64,000 nt of DNA from contig OZ024765.1 of the NCBI GenBank assembly GCA_964016885.1, positions 7,812,001 through 7,876,000 of the forward strand, given 5' to 3'. Below are positions 1 through 46,757 of the stretch, one piece after another; the stretch's first letter is position 1; every line of letters begins with the position of its first letter. Below the pieces are notes generated by a model that searched no databases, had not been told where the DNA came from, and saw nothing but the letters and a program-made list of their open reading frames with translations. The stretch comes from Eledone cirrhosa (lineage: Eukaryota). Made by a program: the position numbers and the translations under genes.

Positions 1-676
1 ATGTAAACAATGTATTTCTTCAATATACAAATAATTACTATTGCTACAGTTAAAAAAATGTACAAAAAATACTTTAAATTCAGTTTTTAATTCATGCAAC
101 AATTGTGTAAATAAACTGTTAAAGAAATTCGAAATAATTTTTAAACCATTTTCGCGATTAAGTAAAGACAGAGTTATCGTTCTTGAGATTTCGGCTCAGA
201 GAAATTCGAGGAACTGATGTCGCTAAATCGCCAAATCATTTACCTGCCCCGTTGCATCATGGGAGGGTAATGGCTGCCTTTTATTTTTTAAACGATGGCA
301 GATTCTATAGTTTCTTTCGCAGCATCTTCCTTGTTTCATATAAGTAAATAATTAAAACATTTTGGCGAGAAATAAACTAAAAAGTTTTCCGTGGTATGAA
401 AAGAAAAAAAGGCAGCCATTACCCTCCCATGGTGCAACGGGGCAGGTAAATGATTTGGCGATTTAGCGACATCAGTTCCTCGAATTTCTCTGAGCCGAAA
501 TCTCAAGAACGATAACTCTGTCTTTACTTAATCGCGAAAATGGTTTAAAAATTATTTCGAATTTCTTTAACAGTTTATTTACACTATTGTTGCATGAATT
601 AAAAACTGAATTTAAAGTATTTTTTAACTGTAACAATAGTAATTATTTGTATATTAAATAAATACATTGTTTACAT
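1..676. mobile_element. Foldback/MITE-like element with ~280-bp inverted arms
   Basis: 1-~282 is the reverse complement of ~405-676 (atgtaaacaatgtattt... / ...aaatacattgtttacat) with few mismatches and a ~120-bp spacer. The left end may extend beyond the window. Confidence 0.75.
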
Positions 677-4286: not shown

Positions 4287-6385
4287 TTGGGTTGTTCCGA
4301 AAATAATGGCTGCTCTAAGTGTTGTGTTTTGAAACGCAATTTTATCATAGTATTTTAATTATATTTTAGGTGAACTTCGACATACTTAATAATTGATGTA
4401 TGCTCTTTAATAATTTTATACTTATTTCAGACAGAAAACATTCTTCAAGCATAGGCGCCCTTAATTATGAACATGACATAAAAGGAGCTTCGCTTACTTT
4501 TCTTGCATGAGTTCAAGCTTGGGCATTAGGCACAATTCCTCCCATACAACTGCCAATATCAACAAGACATGGGGAGAGGGGTCCACAAGTGATCACACAG
4601 TACGAAAGGGGCTGCCAATATCAACAAGACATGGAGAGAGGGGTCAACAAGTGATCACACAGTACAAAGGGGGCTGCCAATATCAACAGAGCATGGGGAG
4701 AGGGGTCCACAAGTGATCACACAGTACAAAGGGGGCTGCCAATATCAACAAGACATGGAGAGAGGGGTCCACAAGTGATCACAGTACAAAGGGGGCTGCC
4801 AATATCAACAGAGCATGGGGAGAGGGGTCCACAAGTGATCACACAGTACAAAGGGGGCTGCCAATATCAACAGAGCATGGGGAGAGGGGTCCACAAGTGA
4901 TCACACAGTACAAAGGGGGCTGCCAATATCAACAAGACATGGAGAGAGGGGTCCACAAGTGACCACACAGTACGAAGGGGGCTGCCAATATCAACAAGAC
5001 ATGGGGAGAGGGGTCCACAAGTGATCACACAGTACAAAGGGGGCTGCCAATATCAACAGAGCATGGGGAGAGGGGTCCACAAGTGATCACACAGTACAAA
5101 GGGGGCTGCCAATATCAACAAGACATGGAGAGAGGGGTCAACAAGTGATCACACAGTACAAAGGGGGCTGCCAATATCAACAGAGCATGGGGAGAGGGGT
5201 CCACAAGTGATCACACAGTACAAAGGGGGCTGCCAATATCAACAAGACATGGAGAGAGGGGTCCACAAGTGATCACAGTACAAAGGGGGCTGCCAATATC
5301 AACAGAGCATGGGGAGAGGGGTCCACAAGTGATCACACAGTACAAAGGGGGCTGCCAATATCAACAGAGCATGGGGAGAGGGGTCCACAAGTGATCACAC
5401 AGTACAAAGGGGGCTGCCAATATCAACAAGACATGGAGAGAGGGGTCCACAAGTGACCACACAGTACGAAGGGGGCTGCCAATATCAACAAGACATGGGG
5501 AGAGGGGTCCACAAGTGATCACACAGTACAAAGGGGGCTGCCAATATCAACAAGACATGGGAAGAGGGGTCCACAAGTGATCACACAGTACGAAGGGGGC
5601 TGCCAATATCAACAGAGCATGGAGAGAGGGGTCCACAAGTGATCGCACAGTACAAAGGGGGGCTGCCAATATCAACAGAGCATGGGGAGAGGGGTCCACA
5701 AGTGATCGCACAGTACGAAGGTGGTTTCAGAAATTCCCTAGTGGTGACGAGAGCCTTGAAGATGAAGAAGGTCGAGGACAGTGATGCAGTCTTGACAATG
5801 AACAATTGAAAGCAATTGTTGAACAAAACCCACGTCAAAGTGTCAGAGAAATGTCTCAGGGACTTGGTGTCGCTATTGCAACGGTCTCACACCATCTGCA
5901 GAAGATTGGTGAGGTGAAAAAGCTTGATAAATGGGTACCACATGAGCTCAATGAAAACCAAAAAGTTCAGCTTTTTGAAGTGTGCTCGATGCTCTTTCTG
6001 TGAAACACCAATGGTCCTTTTCTTGACCGAACAGTCAATAGTCAGAGATGTATAGATGTTCACGGCTCATACTTTGACTAATCAAAACATTTCTGTTGTT
6101 AATTTTTCCAAAATAAACAACAGAAATGTTGACCTGTTCCGGAAGTTAAATAACCTGTGTATCAAATTTGAACAAAATTGGATGGAAACTGGAAATGCAT
6201 AAACTACATACAGACAGAAAGACATTTTCCTTTTTATATATATAGATATTTGTATCTACATTGGTTAGATAATTTACCACTGTAATATTAGGTTGTTCCA
6301 AAAATAATGGCCGATTTCAGAAGCATAATTTTTCCAGAATAAAATTATGCTTCTGAAATCGGCCATTATTTTTGGAACAACCTAA
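4287..6385 (+). mobile_element. Defective mariner transposon
   Basis: TIRs ttgggttgttccgaaaataatggc (4287-4310) and gccattatttttggaacaacctaa (6362-6385), each flanked by TA. Transposase pieces TAANINKTWGEGSTSDHTVR and LKAIVEQNPRQSVREMSQGLGV...KLDKWVPHEL (WVPHEL is the mariner linker motif). The catalytic domain is missing. Confidence 0.9.
4550..5720 (+). repeat. 62-bp minisatellite, ~19 copies, with 494-bp higher-order period
   Basis: Unit gctgccaatatcaacaagacatggggagaggggtccacaagtgatcacacagtacaaagggg, starting for example at 4981, 5043, 5105 and 5167. Confidence 0.95.
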
Positions 6386-6550
6386 TATTACAGTGGTAAA
6401 TTATCTAACCAATGTAGATACAAATATCTATATATATAAAAAGGAAAATGTCTTTCTGTCTGTCTGTATGTAGTCTATGCATTTCCAGTTTCCATCCGAT
6501 TTTGTTCAAATTTGATACACAGGTTATTTAACTTCCGGAACAGGTCAACA
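6127..6550. repeat. Near-perfect palindrome with ~205-bp arms
   Basis: tgttgacctgttccggaag...gaagcataattt is mirrored by aaattatgcttc...cttccggaacaggtcaaca, with a ~9-nt centre near 6336. Confidence 0.95.
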
Positions 6551-13187: not shown

Positions 13188-13876
13188 ATCATCATCATCA
13201 TTCATCATTTCATTTTACGTCCCCTTTTTCCCTGCTTGCAAGGGTGGGACGGGAACTGATTCTGGCTCGATTTCTACAGCTGGATGCCCTTCCTCACACC
13301 AACCTCATTTACAATGAGTGCTGGGTGCTTTTTTGCCATGGCACCTCCACGACCACTTTGCAGTGGAATGATAGGGACCCCAGTCCCTATCATCTCATTT
13401 CTACAGCTGAGTAAACTGGAGCAATGTGAAATAAAGTGTCTTGCTCAAGGAAACAACACATCACCCGGTCTGAGAATTGAACTCACAACCTTTCGATTGC
13501 AAGACCAATGCTCTAACCACTAAGCCATGTGCCTCCATATCATCATTTCATTTTACGTCCGCTTTTCCCCGCATGCAAGGGTGGGACGGGAACTGATTCT
13601 GGCTTGATTTCTACAGCTGGATGCCCTTCCTAACACCAACCTCATTTACAGTGAGTGCTGGGTGCTTTTTTTTCTGTGGCACCTCCACGACCACTTTGCA
13701 GCGGAGTGATAGGGACTAGGGTCCCTATCATCTCATTTCTACAGCTGAGTAAACTGGAGCAATGTGAAATAAAGTGCCTTGCTCAAGGAAACAACACATC
13801 ACCCGGTCTGAGAATTGAACTCGCAACCTTTCGATTGCAAGGCCAATGCTCTAACCACTAAGCCATGTGCCTCCAT
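13188..13876 (-). mobile_element. Two tandem tRNA-derived SINEs, family 2
   Basis: Two ~340-bp copies. Minus-strand head ggaggcacatggcttagtggttagagca (A box), gttcaattc (B box) and (TGA)n tail. Near-identical to 44517-44861. Confidence 0.85.
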
Positions 13877-13977
13877 ATATATAGGTATATATATATGTGT
13901 GTCTGATGGTAGCTAAGATGCTTCCATAGGTGGTATGCCGGTTGAACACTCTATGCTCTTACAAGCAGAGTATGATA

Positions 13978-14284
13978 TAATATAAAACGAAAAGTCAGTG
14001 ATGTATCGGAACTCAATTTATTGTGTGTTACAATTGTTTCGCCGGCAGACAGCTCGAGACGCGATCATTGTGTGGATATGTCTGATTCTGGACCCGCAGG
14101 TTCGACGGACACATCTAATGATTTCGGAGCATATTCTCTCACTCATTAGACGTGTCCATCGAACCTGCGGGTCCAGAATCAGACAGATCCACACAATGAT
14201 CGCGTCTCGAGCTGTCTGCCGGGGAAACAATTGTAACACACAATAAATTGAGTTCAGATGCATCACTGATTTTTCGTTTTATAT

Positions 14285-14286
<2 letters not shown>
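13978..14286. repeat. Imperfect palindrome with ~145-bp arms
   Basis: The two arms are reverse complements, which is why the ORF track shows mirror ORFs at 13998 and 14018. Each arm ends in gaaacaattgtaacacacaataaa. Confidence 0.9.
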
Positions 14287-14320
<34 letters not shown>

Positions 14321-15816: not shown

Positions 15817-16307
15817 GGCATACGTTAAGACGGGCGTTCCGGAAAGTGAAAGTAAATTTTTTGACAACAATGTGAATTTTTTTTTTTTTTTACAATGAAA
15901 ATTACGATACACACGCAATTGTATGGATTTCTTAATATATATATATGTGTGGGTGTGTATATATGTGTGTACACTGTGAATTTGTTTGTTTATTTACAAC
16001 AGGTCTCTATAGTGATATGGTGTTAATTAGTATTGCGTGTGTGATTATTTTTTCTTTAGATAGACGTTAAACGATGATGATGACACAAACACATATATAT
16101 ATACAAACACACATATATATATATATACAGACACACATATATATACACACATATACACACCCACACATATATATATATATATTAAGAAATCCATACAATT
16201 GCGTGTGTATCGTAACTTTCATTTAAAAAAAAAAATCAAAAACAAATTCACATTGTTGTCAAAAAATTTACTTTCACTTTCCGGAACGTCCGTCTTAACG
16301 TATGCCG
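15817..16307. repeat. ~120-bp inverted repeat pair around microsatellite DNA
   Basis: ggcatacgttaagacgggcgttccggaaagtg...ttcttaat (15817-15938) versus attaagaa...cactttccggaacgtccgtcttaacgtatgcc (16181-16306). Confidence 0.85.
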
Positions 16308-16549
16308 TATATATATATATATATATAATAGAAAAAAAACGAGGAAGTTTCGTTTACATATGAAAAATATTTATTGCATCTCGACCTGTTACGCGCGTTT
16401 CAGCGAGGATTGGCTCAAGGTGACCAAAGAGTGCTTGATTTGGTACCAACACCAGTATTTCACTGTACTACCTACACTATATATATTTAATATAGAAAGG
16501 CTTCTACAGGACTAGAACTGTTTCATTCGGAAGAAATCATCAGGAAATT

Positions 16550-16600
16550 GGCTTCCTGATGATTTCTCCCGAATGAAACAATTCTAGTCCTGTAGAAGCT
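16550..16600 (+). ncRNA. Type I hammerhead ribozyme motif, family H1; an inverted sister copy lies at 16499-16546 (-)
   Basis: ggcttc-CTGATGA-t ttc tccc gaa t-GAA-aca attctagtcc tgt-A-gaagct. Stem I 6 bp, stem II 3 bp under a U.U pair, stem III 3 bp, GUA triplet. Confidence 0.6.
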
Positions 16601-17521
16601 TTTCTATATTAAATATTTATACTCTGCTTTGTATTGAGTACCTTACTTACTGTGCTTACCCCCGATTGAAACCGGGATAAACTTATATATATATATAGAT
16701 GTGTAGGAAGGTTATCTTGTTTGACACCACTGAGGTCCACCCAATCCTTTTTTAGGCAAGATTTCTATGGCTGGATGCCCTTCCTATCACCGACCACTTT
16801 ACACTGGAAAATGGTTGGTGATAGTATGATCTTTTTATGTCTTGTGTATTTCTGCCATAACATATATAAGGTAGCAAACTGTCAGAGTCAGTAGAGCGTC
16901 AGATAGAATGCTTTATGGTACTCATTCCGGCTTTCTGAGTTCAAATCCCGTCGAGGTCAACTTTGACTTTCATCCATTCAAGGTTGATAAAAAAAGTACC
17001 AGTCAAGTACTGAGGTTGATTCTTTCTCTATATCTCTCTCTCTCACTTTCTATCATTCATCATGATCATCATTTTATGTCCGCTTTTCCCTGGTTGTAAG
17101 GGTGGGACGGGTCCTATTTAGCACAGCATCTCTCCACTTGTCACAGTCCTTCGTCATCTCCTCCCCCATGAATAGGACCTGTCCCACCCTTACAAGCAGG
17201 GAAAAGCGGACGTAAAATGATGATGATGATGATATATATATATATATATCTACACACAATTAAATTAAAAGTCAATTAACTATGTGTGTTTATACTCTTT
17301 ACAACTTATCCCCTGACAATGTTTGATATGTTTATTTTATATATATATGTCCATCTTTGAGCTTCTACGGGTGGTATGGCTTCTGTTATTCTCAGACATC
17401 ACATCTTATATATATATATATATTATAGTCACAAACAGCGATTTCTCCCAAATGAAACAGTTCTCGTCCTGTAGAAGCCATTACTATATTAAATATATAT
17501 ATATATATTTAATATAGAAAT

Positions 17522-17572
17522 GGCTTCTACAGGACTAGAACCGTTTCATTCGTGAGAAATCATCAGGAAGCC
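17522..17572 (-). ncRNA. Type I hammerhead ribozyme motif, family H1
   Basis: Minus strand ggcttc-CTGATGA-tttctcacgaat-GAA-acgg ttctagtc ctgt-A-gaagcc, with a perfect 6-bp stem I and a 4-bp stem III. A truncated inverted copy lies at ~17441-17495 (+). Confidence 0.65.
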
Positions 17573-17807
17573 GACTGTCCAAGTAATATGGTGGTAGGAG
17601 AGGGACGTGATTGGGATGGGTGGAGGTCATTGGTTGATGGGTTTAAAGAACAGAATTCTTTAAAAGCTATATTTAGAGTAACAAAGGCAGAAAAAAATTC
17701 AAGCTATATATATATATATGAAGTATTTCCGTAGAAAAGGAAGGAAGAGTGCTCTATGTATAATACAGAGGTATTTAATTATGTAATAAAAAACACAAGA
17801 CAATTAT

Positions 17808-17863
17808 TCCATTTACCAAAGGTTTCACGAAGATAGGCAACCGAAGTCGTTCATCAGAAAGGA
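17808..17863 (-). ncRNA. Type I hammerhead ribozyme motif, family H2; an inverted sister copy lies at ~17871-17938 (+)
   Basis: Minus strand tccttt-CTGATGA-acga cttcggttgcctatct tcgt-GAA-acc ttt ggt-A-aatgga. Stem II 4 bp, stem III 3 bp, stem I 5 of 6 pairs. Confidence 0.65.
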
Positions 17864-19398
17864 GAATATCTTTCTGATGAACGACTATGGACACCTCTGT
17901 TGAGGTTGCCTATCTTCATGAAACCTTTGGTAAATGGAATAATTGTCTTGTGTTGTTTATTACATAATTATATATATATATATATACATATATTCATTTC
18001 GTTTCGTTGTATATGCAATGTAAATGTGAGAGAAAGGCAGAACTTGGACAAGCTGCATTTAAGGGAAATCCAAGATGTTGTGCAGGAGAGAAGACTGCAT
18101 TGATGAGGCATGTGCAGCGAAATCTGTCCACACCTTGAACCCTGGGTGACACAGAAAGGTCAAATTCTGGGTCACCTCCTTTTTGGGTAAACAAGTCTAT
18201 GTGTGGGCGACGGTCCCTTGAGGCGGGAGACAGGAGGTGACAGATATAAATAGCCTGTAGGAGACCAAACAAAACCACTTCGGAGTAGTACATGAGAGAA
18301 TAACTATGTAAAATGTTTGCTTTCTACAGACCCCCATGGGGTCTACAGCCCTCTCTCTCTCCTGGTCTACAGACTTCTACCAACCCTTACTCTCTACATG
18401 GGTCTACAGACCTTTCTCCTAGTCTCACAGACTTCTCACTTTCTCTGGCCACAGACTACACCAACATAATGAAGTAACAACCTAAACATCTTCAACCGTT
18501 ATAATTCATAGTAACCTATTCGTTGTTCTTTTTAACTGAAGTGAAGTAAATTTGATATCAAAAGTAAACCATCTATTTTGTGTTATTTTCACCTAACAAC
18601 ATTTATTAACTTTGCTTTCACCAAAGGGTGAAGAAATGCCAGGAAATTCCAGTGGAAAGAAGCTGCATTACAGGACGACCATGAAAGACCTAGGCAGAGA
18701 TTGTGAGAGCTGACCTCAAATTACTAAGATTGGCAGAGGAGATGTCGAAGGAGCACCAGAAGTGCCATACTGAGTTTGTGTGAATAAATTTTGAAAATTT
18801 GACTGAACAAAATAAGAGGCAATAAATAAAATGATTTTAATTTCAAAGACTATTTTATCAGAAATTTCAATGAAAGCAAGTTACATGGTAATTTATTTTC
18901 TTCAGATGTAGACTTACTTCACACAGAATGATTCCCCATATATTTCACAATGATTTATACATGTATTTGTCCAGTGTGTATACATTTATCAACAAGTTTA
19001 TATACCACAAATAAGGATTTCCCTAATATTTTAGTGAAAGGGTTTCTCTCAGATGAGAATTAACAGAGAATGATTTCTCACATATTTCACTATAAATATT
19101 CAGCAATGTGTACATGTTGGTAGACAATATATTTAGATTTATACAAGATTTCTCAAGGATCACAGTTTAAAGTCTTCCCTCAAGTGTGTACATCTTGGTA
19201 GACAGTATATTTAGATTTACATAAGAAATATTTCTCAAGGACCACAGTTTAAAGTCTTCACTTCAGTGTGTACATGTTGGTAGACAATATATTTAGATTT
19301 ACACAAGAAATATTTCTCATTATTCACAGTTTAATGTCTTCCCTCCAGTATGTACATCTTGGTAGACAATATATTTAGACTTACATAAGAAATATTTC

Positions 19399-27304: not shown

Positions 27305-27363
27305 ATTTTATCTGATGAGAGCGTACCAAAATACTGGTACCCTTGAAATATATATAATAAAAT
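27305..27363 (+). ncRNA. Type I minimal hammerhead ribozyme motif, family H3
   Basis: attttat-CTGATGA-gagcgtacca aaatac tggtaccctt-GAA-atatatat-A-ataaaat. Stem I 7 of 7 bp, stem II 9 of 10 bp, palindromic stem III, AUA triplet, AATAAA directly downstream. Confidence 0.75.
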
Positions 27364-45193: not shown

Positions 45194-46757
45194 CCGGTGA
45201 TCCCAAGCTCTGGACGCATATTTTGCTGCAAATGGAATTAAAACAGAGCAGAAACTCAATGTTTTGGTTACTGGCATACCTTCATCGTTCACCACCACGG
45301 TGAAAGATTTAATAACGGACCTGCCAACCGGTACTTCGTATGATTCGTTGAGGACAGCAATATTAAGGAGAAACTGCCGTTTTGCTCAGAGCAGGTCGCC
45401 ATCCGAATTTTTACGCCACATTCGGTACCTCAGTGAATCGCCCGATGAGGATAGTTTATTTATCAAAAAGCTATTTTTCTCGCTTGCCAAACAATATCCA
45501 GATTATATTGGCTACCATAGTGGACTCGAGCTCGGTGGAGCAGATCGCTGCATCTGCCGATCGAATTGTGGAATTCTCTAGGAAAACTACCTCATCAAAC
45601 TCACTTGTTGCCTCTTCGACACACGAGGATGCCATGTGGAAGGCGATTGACGCGTCAAGTCGCGAAATTATGTAGGGAGAGTAGGCCATCTCCCAGGCGA
45701 CCAAGAAGTCGTTCGCGTTCCTTCGCAACTTCACGCCGTAACGCCAGCTTGCCCGCCAGCAATTCGTCTTTTTTGCTGGTATCATGCCACCTTCGCTGGT
45801 AAAGCAAAACACTGTCGGCCACCGTGTAACTATTCAACTTCGTGAAACGCAAACCAGAGTCACTGACGGGGGCAGCTGATCTCTGTGCTACACACCCAAA
45901 CCACCACTTCTTTATTGAGGACCTACTGTACGGAAGATCTTTCTTCGTAGATACGGGAGCCTCCTGCAGCATTTGGCCGGTGAACTGTGTTAAAGAAACT
46001 CCTCCTGAGTCATCAATGAATCTACAAGCTGTCAATCATTCCACCGATACGGACTTTTGGACAAATCTCTCTTCGACGAGAATTCAAATGGATTTTTACG
46101 GTTGCTGACCTACCATATCTGATCTTGGGAGCGGATATTTTACACCATTTTGCATTGACGGTGGACGTCTGTGGCCGGCGCCTAGTAGATGGCATTACTG
46201 GTTTTTCTCTTCGTGGCCAGAAAGCTAATTTTCCAACGGTTAGCCCAACCTTCTTCATCGCTAATGCTGGGAATGCCTATCTTGCATTGTTGAATTCTTT
46301 CCCACAACTTACTCAGGGAAATTTTCGAGTTGTCGAACTGACTCACTCAACCGTACATTTCATCTCCCCTATTGGTGCTCCAGTGTTTTCCCGTCCTCGC
46401 CGCTTGCCTGCGGACAAATTGAAGGCAGCACGGTCCGAGTTCGATCAGATGCTACAGCTAGGCATAATTCGCCCGTCTACGAGCCCTTGGTCGTCTCCAT
46501 TACACATGGTACCCAAGACTTCTGGCAACTGGCGACCCACTGGGGATTATAGGAAGTTAAATGCTATAACTGTCTCCAATAGATATCCTATTCCACACCT
46601 GCAAGATTTTGCATCGTCGTTGCAGGGATGTAAAGTTTTCTCAAAGCTCGATTTGGTGCGAGCTTATCATCAGATTCCTGTCAAGAAAGAAGATATTCCA
46701 AAAACGGCCATTACGACTCCATTTGGATCATTCGAATTTCTTACCATGCCTTTTGGA
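45194..46757 (+). mobile_element. Ty3/Gypsy LTR retrotransposon internal fragment (gag, protease, RT N-half), decayed
   Basis: Gag-like LPNNIQIILAT, protease FFVDTGASCSI, and [20 protein letters not shown]...DYRKLN...YPIPHLQDF...[19 protein letters not shown]. Truncated before the YxDD motif; no flanking LTRs. Confidence 0.9.

What the first reader, a model, noticed from the sequence alone, without database searches (positions are those of the whole stretch)
16487..17572. Hammerhead family H1: four copies in two inverted pairs with a non-canonical U.U at the base of stem II
Seen: ggcttc-CUGAUGA-U(UUC..GAA)U-GAAAC(A/G)G-loop-CUGUA-gaagcc occurs back-to-back at 16499-16600 and tail-to-tail at ~17441-17572, where one copy is truncated. 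The stem III change ACAG to ACGG keeps pairing with CUGU, and the stem II loop varies (uccc, uucc, ucac) while the core is fixed. All complete copies have U.U where canonical hammerheads have a purine-pyrimidine pair. Inference: a variant hammerhead in a non-autonomous Penelope/retrozyme-like family that standard covariance models could miss. The paired layout puts a ribozyme on both strands.
Basis: partly seen in the sequence, partly recalled or inferred. Interest (0 to 1): 0.75.

Follow-up and report, generated by a model that had tools for sequence, protein, structure and literature searches.

The report
Capped-start hammerhead of Hydra-type retroelement
These four repeats are short dead copies of the end of a Penelope-type jumping gene that carries a predicted self-cutting RNA in an already published variant form, and the way thousands of such copies begin suggests that the RNA starts exactly at the ribozyme and is usually copied into DNA uncut.

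Summary
The hammerhead motif is real, but only one of the four copies (17572-17522, minus) keeps all 13 pairs. H1 is not a free non-coding family. It lies in the terminal repeat (pLTR) of a protein-coding Penelope-like element with Hydra-clade motifs. U.U is the family rule (20,918 matches, against 7 with both positions changed). It is not new: it is a published natural variant and is present in 14 of 25 Hydra families in a 2021 supplement. The inverted pairs are insertion products, not a two-strand ribozyme design: 64 of 92 sampled copies have a head-to-head partner, almost always shorter. This scan had noted that two-arm layout on other DNA of this genome.

What I did not find in print: a TATA box lies 30 bases before stem I in two subfamilies, and 5' ends pile up at stem I (83 of 92 start there or later). 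Of 100 such junctions, 70 carry an extra G where the template has C. This points to a capped RNA that begins with the ribozyme and is copied uncut. Cleavage and expression were not tested.

The parts
16478..16546 (-). Short arm of the head-to-head insertion: from about -42 (relative to the predicted cut site) to the first fixed 3' end, in (TA)n. Hammerhead core whole, two outer stem I pairs lost.
   Evidence: (row win16550: arm -42..28)
16550..16685 (+). Long arm: starts at the first base of stem I (-45, the inferred transcription start) and runs through the hammerhead and the tail to the second fixed 3' end, then (TA)n.
   Evidence: (main -45..92)
16550..16600 (+). Type I hammerhead: stem I 16550-55/16595-600, CUGAUGA 16556-62, U10.1 16563, stem II 16564-66/16571-73, U11.1 16574, GAAA 16575-78, stem III 16578-81/16590-93 with one A.C mismatch. 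Predicted cut after 16594.
   Evidence: sequence; pair check
16617..16685 (+). Penelope-type 'tail' between the two fixed 3' ends. In 5' pLTRs it runs on into the ORF start.
   Evidence: tail concept from PMC8557442 and PMC11167929
17440..17501 (+). 5'-truncated copy lacking CUGAU, with a broken stem II pair; ends at the first fixed end in the shared (TA)n tract.
17500..17706 (-). pLTR copy of about 200 nt ending at the first fixed end. The segment holding the TATA box is deleted. Probably a separate insertion into the same (TA)n tract as 17440-17501.
   Evidence: tail-to-tail rarity
17522..17572 (-). The only window hammerhead with all 13 pairs (one G.U in stem III) and U.U at 10.1/11.1. Predicted cut between 17528 and 17527.

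Best explanation
H1 is a type I hammerhead with a U10.1.U11.1 mismatch in the terminal repeat of a protein-coding Penelope-like retrotransposon with Hydra-clade motifs, and the window holds four short promoterless copies that were likely reverse-transcribed from the uncut, capped 5' end of the element's RNA.

Shown: the link to the ORF; U.U as the family rule; two fixed 3' ends (about +20 and +90 from the cut site); unequal head-to-head arms; a TATA box 30 nt before stem I in two subfamilies; a drop in copy number 5' of stem I; an extra G at that point.

Inferred: RNA polymerase II starts at the first base of stem I, so the ribozyme is the first 51 nt of a capped RNA. The element's enzyme cuts (TA)n and starts copying at the two internal sites from both DNA ends. 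It runs about 65 and 135 nt to the cap, copies the cap as G, and the two copies join head to head.

More weakly inferred: cutting is slow or protein-assisted. When it happens in both terminal repeats it would give a unit-length RNA that can be circularised, and full-length copies that run past the start site would come from that circle or from read-through RNA.
For: ORF link: (L061: degraded ORF at 72-78% identity to the intact sister protein over residues 35-714, then the H1 pLTR; an inverted 5'-side copy at the other end).
Hydra motifs: against PMC8557442 section 11.
U.U.
Stem I covariation: GGCUUC/GAAGCC (37 copies) against AGAUUC/GAAUCU (72 copies) among 181 distinct copies; two pairs with changes on both sides.
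TATA to C3 spacing of 36 nt in 33 of 37 H1 copies and 46 of 49 sister copies, with different spacer sequence.
5' ends: 9 of 92 lie upstream of -45, 30 of 92 in -45..-40, 3 at +1 (p about 5e-11 against uniform downstream truncation).
Extra G: 70 of the first 100 listed junctions (115 in all), against templated G in 0 of 37 and 1 of 55 at the cut site. Sister subfamily, where the start base is A: 29 of 63 against 0 of 49.
Cap-derived G in L1/SVA: PMC4859970 passages.
Two arms: 63 of 65 inverted arms stop at or before +29, and 44 of 65 pairs reach furthest 5' at -45..-38.
Precedent for two internal start sites, uncut template and a protein-assisted ribozyme: PMC11167929.
Against: There is no RNA or cleavage data. 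The hammerhead fold is marginal in prediction (stem II pair probability 0.02-0.24), and stems II and III show no two-sided change within this lineage. The stem I covariation reflects only a few evolutionary events.
Part of the pile-up at -45 comes from fold-back through stem I itself (6 of 69 sister junctions; L244), and some G's could come from (GA)n flanks or inverted arms.
The cut-site control is imperfect: 55 matches (10 from one tandem array) do lie at or near +1 with A/T flanks, so a minor cleaved template is not excluded.
Among ORF-linked sister copies the pile-up at the start site is weak: 55 of 102 run beyond -55.
The D. virilis Penelope promoter is TATA-less and internal (PMC2377424 passages), so the design is not general to PLEs.
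No phylogeny against reference Hydra proteins was built.
Confidence: 0.75

Rival explanations
1. H1 copies come from an independent non-autonomous retrozyme-like RNA (circular, self-cleaving) that only borrows a Penelope enzyme.
For: Most copies are short and non-coding. A few small head-to-tail repeats exist (L306 and L308; sister L218, L193, L203, L236). True tandem hammerhead arrays of 310 and 466 bp with U.U occur in this genome.
Against: The repeat is joined to an RT-endonuclease ORF on both sides. A circle has no 5' end, yet 83 of 92 copies start at or after stem I, many with an extra G. The 310- and 466-bp units share only the core with H1.
Confidence: 0.1
2. The 5' pile-up and the inversions are caused by cDNA fold-back or template switching at stem I, with terminal G addition by the reverse transcriptase, and say nothing about a transcription start or a cap.
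For: Fold-back through stem I is seen directly (6 of 69 junctions; L127). 15 of 18 head-to-head pairs among the first 100 hits have 17 nt or less between the motif starts.
Against: The extra G occurs in copies joined straight to A/T flanks, before an A in the sister subfamily, and not at the control site (1 of 55). The TATA spacing is fixed at 30 nt from this point in two subfamilies.
Confidence: 0.15
3. The U.U hammerhead is catalytically dead and is kept only as a structure or as passenger sequence of the promoter region.
For: No pile-up of 5' ends at the cut site (0 of 102 at +1; 3 of 92). Weak predicted fold. PLE hammerheads are poorly active in vitro (PMC4209133, parts 1-2 read; 1 of 9 dimer elements cleaved in preprint 10.64898/2026.07.22.740005, passage).
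Against: Core and GUA stay fixed while stem I covaries. U.U recurs with several unrelated stem II sequences and swaps with G-C between homologous 466-bp units whose other pairs covary. U.U is reported as the best-tolerated mismatch (PMC3088659).
Confidence: 0.15
4. The pairs are a designed two-strand (ambisense, viroid-like) replicon, or a MITE-like DNA element with inverted ends.
For: Both pairs put motifs on opposite strands and form near-perfect palindromes.
Against: Arms are unequal and junctions vary from copy to copy. One ribozyme is broken in both window pairs. Tail-to-tail pairs are rare (3 plausible loci among 92 copies). An unrelated LINE end forms the same kind of hairpin at 17057-17232.
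Confidence: 0.02

Closest known systems
Hydra clade of C-terminal EN+ Penelope-like elements (Craig et al. 2021, PMC8557442; passages, section 11, and part 2 of 59 of the supplement read)
   Same: Single RT + C-terminal GIY-YIG ORF with RW[K/R], DKT, CxCX5C, no CCHH, and CxxC/CxH motifs; hammerhead in the pLTR; (TA)n targets; inverted 5' copy and one-sided tail. 14 of the 25 Hydra families in File S2 have U at both 10.1 and 11.1 by my reading of the table.
   Different: The listed hammerhead of Hydra-1_oBim has another sequence. H1 has a 3-bp stem II and a 4-bp stem III with an 8-nt loop holding CUAG. The 3' UTR is a long microsatellite. I saw no transcription start, TATA box or cap G described for Hydra elements in the parts read.
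U10.1-U11.1 natural hammerhead variant (Perreault et al. 2011, PMC3088659; section 8 and passages read, figures not seen)
   Same: Stem II starting with a U.U mismatch; said to be the best-tolerated mispair (citing Ruffner 1990, which I did not read).
   Different: There it is a rare variant. Here U..U matches outnumber G..C matches 56,152 to 12,759 with the same descriptor.
Poseidon_Ac (PAc) of Anolis, in vitro (Frangieh et al. 2024, PMC11167929; parts 1-2 of 4 read)
   Same: Two internal reverse-transcription start sites bounding the tail; cutting and extension on both strands of AT-rich DNA; uncut RNA as the main template; protein-assisted hammerhead.
   Different: Other clade. The PAc ORF overlaps the ribozyme, whereas here the ATG lies about 130 nt after the cut site. 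No start site at stem I or cap G is reported in the parts read.
Metazoan non-LTR retrozymes (PMC7229834, passages; preprint 10.64898/2026.07.22.740005, part 1 of 5 and passages)
   Same: Short non-coding units with a type I hammerhead, thought to be moved by PLE enzymes.
   Different: H1 copies are mostly single or head-to-head, part of a coding element, and have a defined 5' end.
Minimal PLE hammerheads (Cervera and de la Pena 2014, PMC4209133; parts 1-2 of 4 read)
   Same: Located in pLTRs, scattered in thousands of truncated copies, some in close opposite-strand pairs; possible dimer through a palindromic helix III (H1 self-duplex -12.8 against hairpin -1.4 kcal/mol).
   Different: Those keep G10.1-C11.1 and an extra base after A9. 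H1 has U.U, a short stem II and a closed stem III.

Membership tests
Type I hammerhead ribozyme | Core C3 U4 G5 A6 N7 G8 A9 / G12 A13 A14 A15.1 / U16.1 H17 | tested here: met
   Three window copies; invariant in alignment A1
Type I hammerhead ribozyme | Three helices around the core, stem I open | tested here: met
   All 13 pairs in 17572-17522 and in typical copies; 94% of cells paired, two stem I pairs with two-sided change. No two-sided change in stems II and III within this lineage.
Type I hammerhead ribozyme | Site-specific self-cleavage after N17 | not testable with these tools
   No assay. Genomic 5' ends show no pile-up at the site.
Type I hammerhead ribozyme | Tertiary contact between stems I and II | not tested
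   Only inspected by eye; no conserved register seen while loop II varies
Canonical-consensus hammerhead (R10.1-Y11.1; Rfam models) | Purine-pyrimidine pair at 10.1-11.1 and a match to an Rfam hammerhead model | tested here: not met
   U.U in 20,918 matches, G-C in 1 of 7 double changes; no Rfam hammerhead hit. Filed as the published U.U variant instead.
Hydra-clade PLE | Single ORF, RT followed by C-terminal GIY-YIG nuclease | tested here: met
   714-aa sister ORF with YRDD and IVY..YIG motifs; homologues carry Pfam RVT_1 and GIY-YIG hits; the ORF itself has no significant Pfam or PDB hit; degraded H1 ORF in L061
Hydra-clade PLE | RWK and DKT motifs, CxCX5C linker, no CCHH, CxxC and CxH near the C-terminus | tested here: met
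   RWR (RWK in most homologues), DKT, CNCLNKEAC, CDLC, CMH; no conserved cysteine pair inside the GIY-YIG motif
Hydra-clade PLE | Hammerhead in the pLTR; insertion into (TA)n; tail and inverted 5' copy | tested here: met
Hydra-clade PLE | Generally shorter than 3 kb | tested here: inconclusive
   ORF 2.1 kb plus a microsatellite 3' UTR of at least 900 nt in most intact sister copies; total length not fixed
Hydra-clade PLE | RT phylogeny groups with reference Hydra elements | not tested
   Reference proteins were not available as tool inputs
Non-LTR retrozyme | Non-coding unit repeated head to tail | tested here: not met
   Linked to an ORF; 9 of 93 rows have another same-strand piece nearby, and only L306 and L308 look tandem
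Non-LTR retrozyme | Circular RNA in vivo | not testable with these tools
   No RNA data available

The most novel reading that the evidence does not exclude
In this Hydra-clade lineage the promoter places the cap on the first base of the hammerhead, so the weakened U.U ribozyme is a switch between two fates of one RNA. Uncut and capped, it is the mRNA and the template for tens of thousands of short two-armed dead copies. Cut at both terminal repeats, it loses its cap and becomes a circle from which full-length elements are copied. The genome would thus record, in 5' ends and cap-derived G's, which RNA form each insertion came from, making the open question of what PLE hammerheads are for directly testable.
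Probability: 0.3. Interest if true: 0.7.

Novelty: new member of a known kind. Interest (0 to 1): 0.4.

Why it matters
The flagged feature itself (U.U, inverted pairs) is ordinary for Hydra-clade Penelope elements. Two points have some value. First, U.U hammerheads are the majority class in this genome under a simple descriptor and Rfam missed the ones in this window, so ribozyme counts in such genomes may be too low. Second, the role of hammerheads in Penelope-like elements is described as unclear (PMC8557442), and in vitro work found them dispensable (PMC11167929). A start site fixed at stem I, read from about a hundred genomic junctions, says which RNA is the in vivo template and gives exact predictions for 5'-end mapping and circle junctions.

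Tried and rejected
Rfam at gathering score and at E<=10 gave no hammerhead, only hairpin microRNA models below threshold, rejected as palindrome matches.
Folding z-scores gave no support.
Reading U10.1 as the extra base of minimal hammerheads, or A9 as part of stem II, was rejected: the first leaves U opposite U again, the second removes A9.
Pfam and PDB searches of the ORF gave no significant hit (1 of 19 alignment members hit RVT_1).
Search for sequencing runs: no RNA holder listed. The three runs of unknown kind, one sample, were laid on 16300-17760 and gave only short repeat-derived contigs, no piece spanning the pairs: uninformative.
A pile-up of 5' ends at the cut site was looked for and not found.
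The crude pair count (57 inverted, 17 tail-to-tail of 92) was replaced by the alignment-based count (64 and 6 rows). About 3 of the 64 are doubtful (L308 second copy, L272 minus, L279), and 2 of the 6 are low-complexity noise and 2 are one locus counted twice.
In one search, 2 duplicate rows of 104 were dropped. In one search, 100 rows collapse to 69 loci and 6 stem I fold-backs were set aside.
A 2017 paper on small PLE hammerheads cleaving as dimers (recalled) was not held, so it may already cover U.U variants.
Searches for a published start site or cap G at PLE hammerheads and in earlier scan notes showed none in listings or passages. Supplements of PMC4209133, PMC3088659, PMC11167929 and the preprint were not seen and may bear on this.

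Full report
Observation. The window (G000:C26, a 3.0-Gb animal genome; earlier scan notes call it octopus-like, which I did not test) holds four H1 copies: 16546-16478 (-), 16550-16685 (+), 17440-17501 (+) and about 17706-17500 (-). The first two are head to head, the last two tail to tail across a TA tract. Three have the whole core with U at 10.1 and 11.1. Only 17572-17522 keeps all 13 pairs; 16550-16600 has an A.C mismatch in stem III, and 16549-16499 lost two stem I pairs at the junction. The core pattern exceeds chance (8 against 1.83). Rfam gives no hammerhead hit, and folding energies are no better than shuffles.

What the repeat is. A genome search gave 1,256 first-look candidates, of which 40 were scored. 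The 30 loci fetched show a longer repeat: up to about 330 nt upstream of the ribozyme and two fixed 3' ends, about 20 and 90 nt after the predicted cut, mostly followed by (TA)n. A search with upstream sequence led to copies joined to a reading frame. In L059/L062 the tail runs into an ORF start. In L061 a degraded RT-nuclease frame precedes the H1 repeat, with an inverted copy at the far end. L063 and L064 show the same order. A sister subfamily, about 80% identical, has intact frames of about 714 aa. The protein has RWR, DKT, CxCX5C, CxxC and CxH and lacks the CCHH cysteines, the features given for the Hydra clade (PMC8557442 section 11). It has 1,189 homologues at E<=1e-20 among 7,993 candidates scored; most of the best 120 listed are about 40% identical. 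No tree was built.

The ribozyme. The sister keeps the core, U.U and stem III but has stem I AGAUUC/GAAUCU in place of GGCUUC/GAAGCC: two compensatory changes (72 and 37 of 181 distinct copies; on 14 chosen rows, 11 distinct). These are few events, and stems II and III do not covary in this lineage. U.U is the rule: 20,918 matches against 7 with both positions changed, 1 of them G-C. In 27 of 30 loci chosen by upstream sequence, copies differ by 5.0% from a typical copy; loop II varies most (0.11 per site), the two U's least (1 change in 54 sites), and 15 of 27 keep core and U.U. Genome-wide a U..U descriptor gives 56,152 matches (control 77) and the G..C one 12,759 (control 14). U.U recurs with unrelated stem II sequences, and homologous 466-bp tandem units about 60% identical carry G-C in one family and U.U in the other. 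Helix III could also form as a dimer through its CUAG centre.

U.U is published. Perreault 2011 reports a natural U10.1-U11.1 start of stem II and calls it the best-tolerated mismatch (section 8; figures not seen). File S2 of Craig 2021, headed 'Canonical HHR motifs', shows U at both places in 14 of 25 Hydra families by my count.

The inverted pairs. I took the first 92 of 2,043 hits of a tail motif (loci L241-L330, all on contig C1). By alignment 64 of 92 have a head-to-head arm (about 3 doubtful). Counting the window pair, 63 of 65 inverted arms stop at or before +29, so one arm has the tail and the other does not. Tail-to-tail pairs occur at 3 plausible loci. This matches the inverted 5' copy and one-sided tail of PLEs and the two internal start sites with both-strand extension shown for PAc. 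Earlier scan notes had proposed the two-arm reading for other families of this genome; they prompted the arm test. The hairpin at 17057-17232 matches the 3' end of a LINE-type insertion found in L061 (the label RTE is recalled), so fold-backs are not special to ribozymes. None of the window copies has the TATA box.

Where the RNA starts. TATAAATA lies 36 nt before C3 in 33 of 37 H1 and 46 of 49 sister copies with different spacers, that is 30 nt before stem I, the usual TATA-to-start distance (general knowledge). Of the 92 copies, 9 extend 5' of -45, 30 start in -45..-40 and 3 at the cut site. Among copies joined to A/T flanks at -45, the preceding base is G in 70 of the first 100 listed (115 in all; C 5, A 10, T 15), whereas the template has C (G in 0 of 37). 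At the cut site it is G in 1 of 55. In the sister, whose stem I starts with A, 29 of 63 junctions have G (G in 0 of 49 templates). An untemplated G at full-length L1 and SVA ends is taken as copying of the cap (PMC4859970 passages). The window copy at 16550 starts at this base.

Against this reading: fold-back through stem I also ends copies there (6 of 69 junctions), some G's may come from flanks, and no RNA data exist. In ORF-linked sister copies 76 of 102 read through the cut site, none starts at +1, two at +2, and 55 run beyond -55. These need a template that continues past the start site, a circle or a read-through RNA.

Mechanism. Shown: location in a coding element, U.U as the rule, two 3' ends, unequal arms, TATA spacing, 5' pile-up, extra G. 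Inferred (about 0.7): a capped transcript beginning with the hammerhead is copied uncut from two internal start sites into both ends of a cut TA tract. Weakly inferred (about 0.3): slow or protein-assisted cutting makes a decapped circle that yields full-length copies. Cleavage itself is likely but untested.

Verdict. A new family of a known kind: a Hydra-type PLE with the published U.U hammerhead variant. The start-site and cap evidence did not appear in my searches, but one relevant 2017 paper and several supplements were not seen. Interest 0.4.

Noticed in passing
G000 genome-wide; L150/L151 against L133/L152: Homologous 466-bp tandem hammerhead arrays (about 60% identical, colinear) carry U.U in one family and G-C in the other, with the other stem II pairs covarying. 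Both keep an ATGCAAAT octamer (known from snRNA promoters; recalled).
   Followed up: partly
L149 (C1:5387500-5394000), L154: 310-312-bp tandem arrays with a U.U hammerhead and a palindromic CGCG stem III, as two opposed arms; they share only the core with H1.
   Followed up: partly
L218, L193, L203, L236: Small head-to-tail repeats (191, 211, 261, 390 bp) made of hammerhead + tail + ORF start of the sister subfamily: retrozyme-like units apparently arising from the coding element.
   Followed up: partly
L120, L128, L131, L153: Further families with U.U at the base of unrelated stem II sequences (CGC/GCG, CAC/GUG, CC/GG), not traced to parent elements.
   Followed up: no
window 17057-17232: Hairpin made of two head-to-head 3' ends of a LINE-type element with a (TGA)n tail, matching the insertion in L061.
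   Followed up: partly
window 16620-16640 (+): ACTC...GAGT hairpin just after the first fixed end, predicted in copy L006 but not in the window copy. Earlier scan notes propose it as a start signal; its twin after the second end was not checked.
   Followed up: partly
window 46637-46673 (-): CUGAUGA followed by a 7-bp stem flanked by U.U and then GAGA instead of GAAA: possible other variant or decayed hammerhead.
   Followed up: no
window 17763-17983, 15817-16306, 13967-14297, 6127-6550, 1-676: Further large inverted repeats, at least two of them flanked by (TA)n. 17823-17857 (-) and 27312-27348 (+) contain hammerhead-like cores of other families.
   Followed up: no
window 16340-16477 (-): Piece of another repeat directly beside the H1 pair, with a half core (GAAAC, palindromic CGCG, GUA) and no intact CUGANGA.
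   Followed up: no
window 13470-13527 (-): tRNA-like Rfam hit just above threshold (30.5 bits), probably the head of a tRNA-derived SINE.
   Followed up: no
G000:C26:2463064-2463387: 20-bp-period tandem repeat made from the sequence just after the H1 cut site (10 matches).
   Followed up: no
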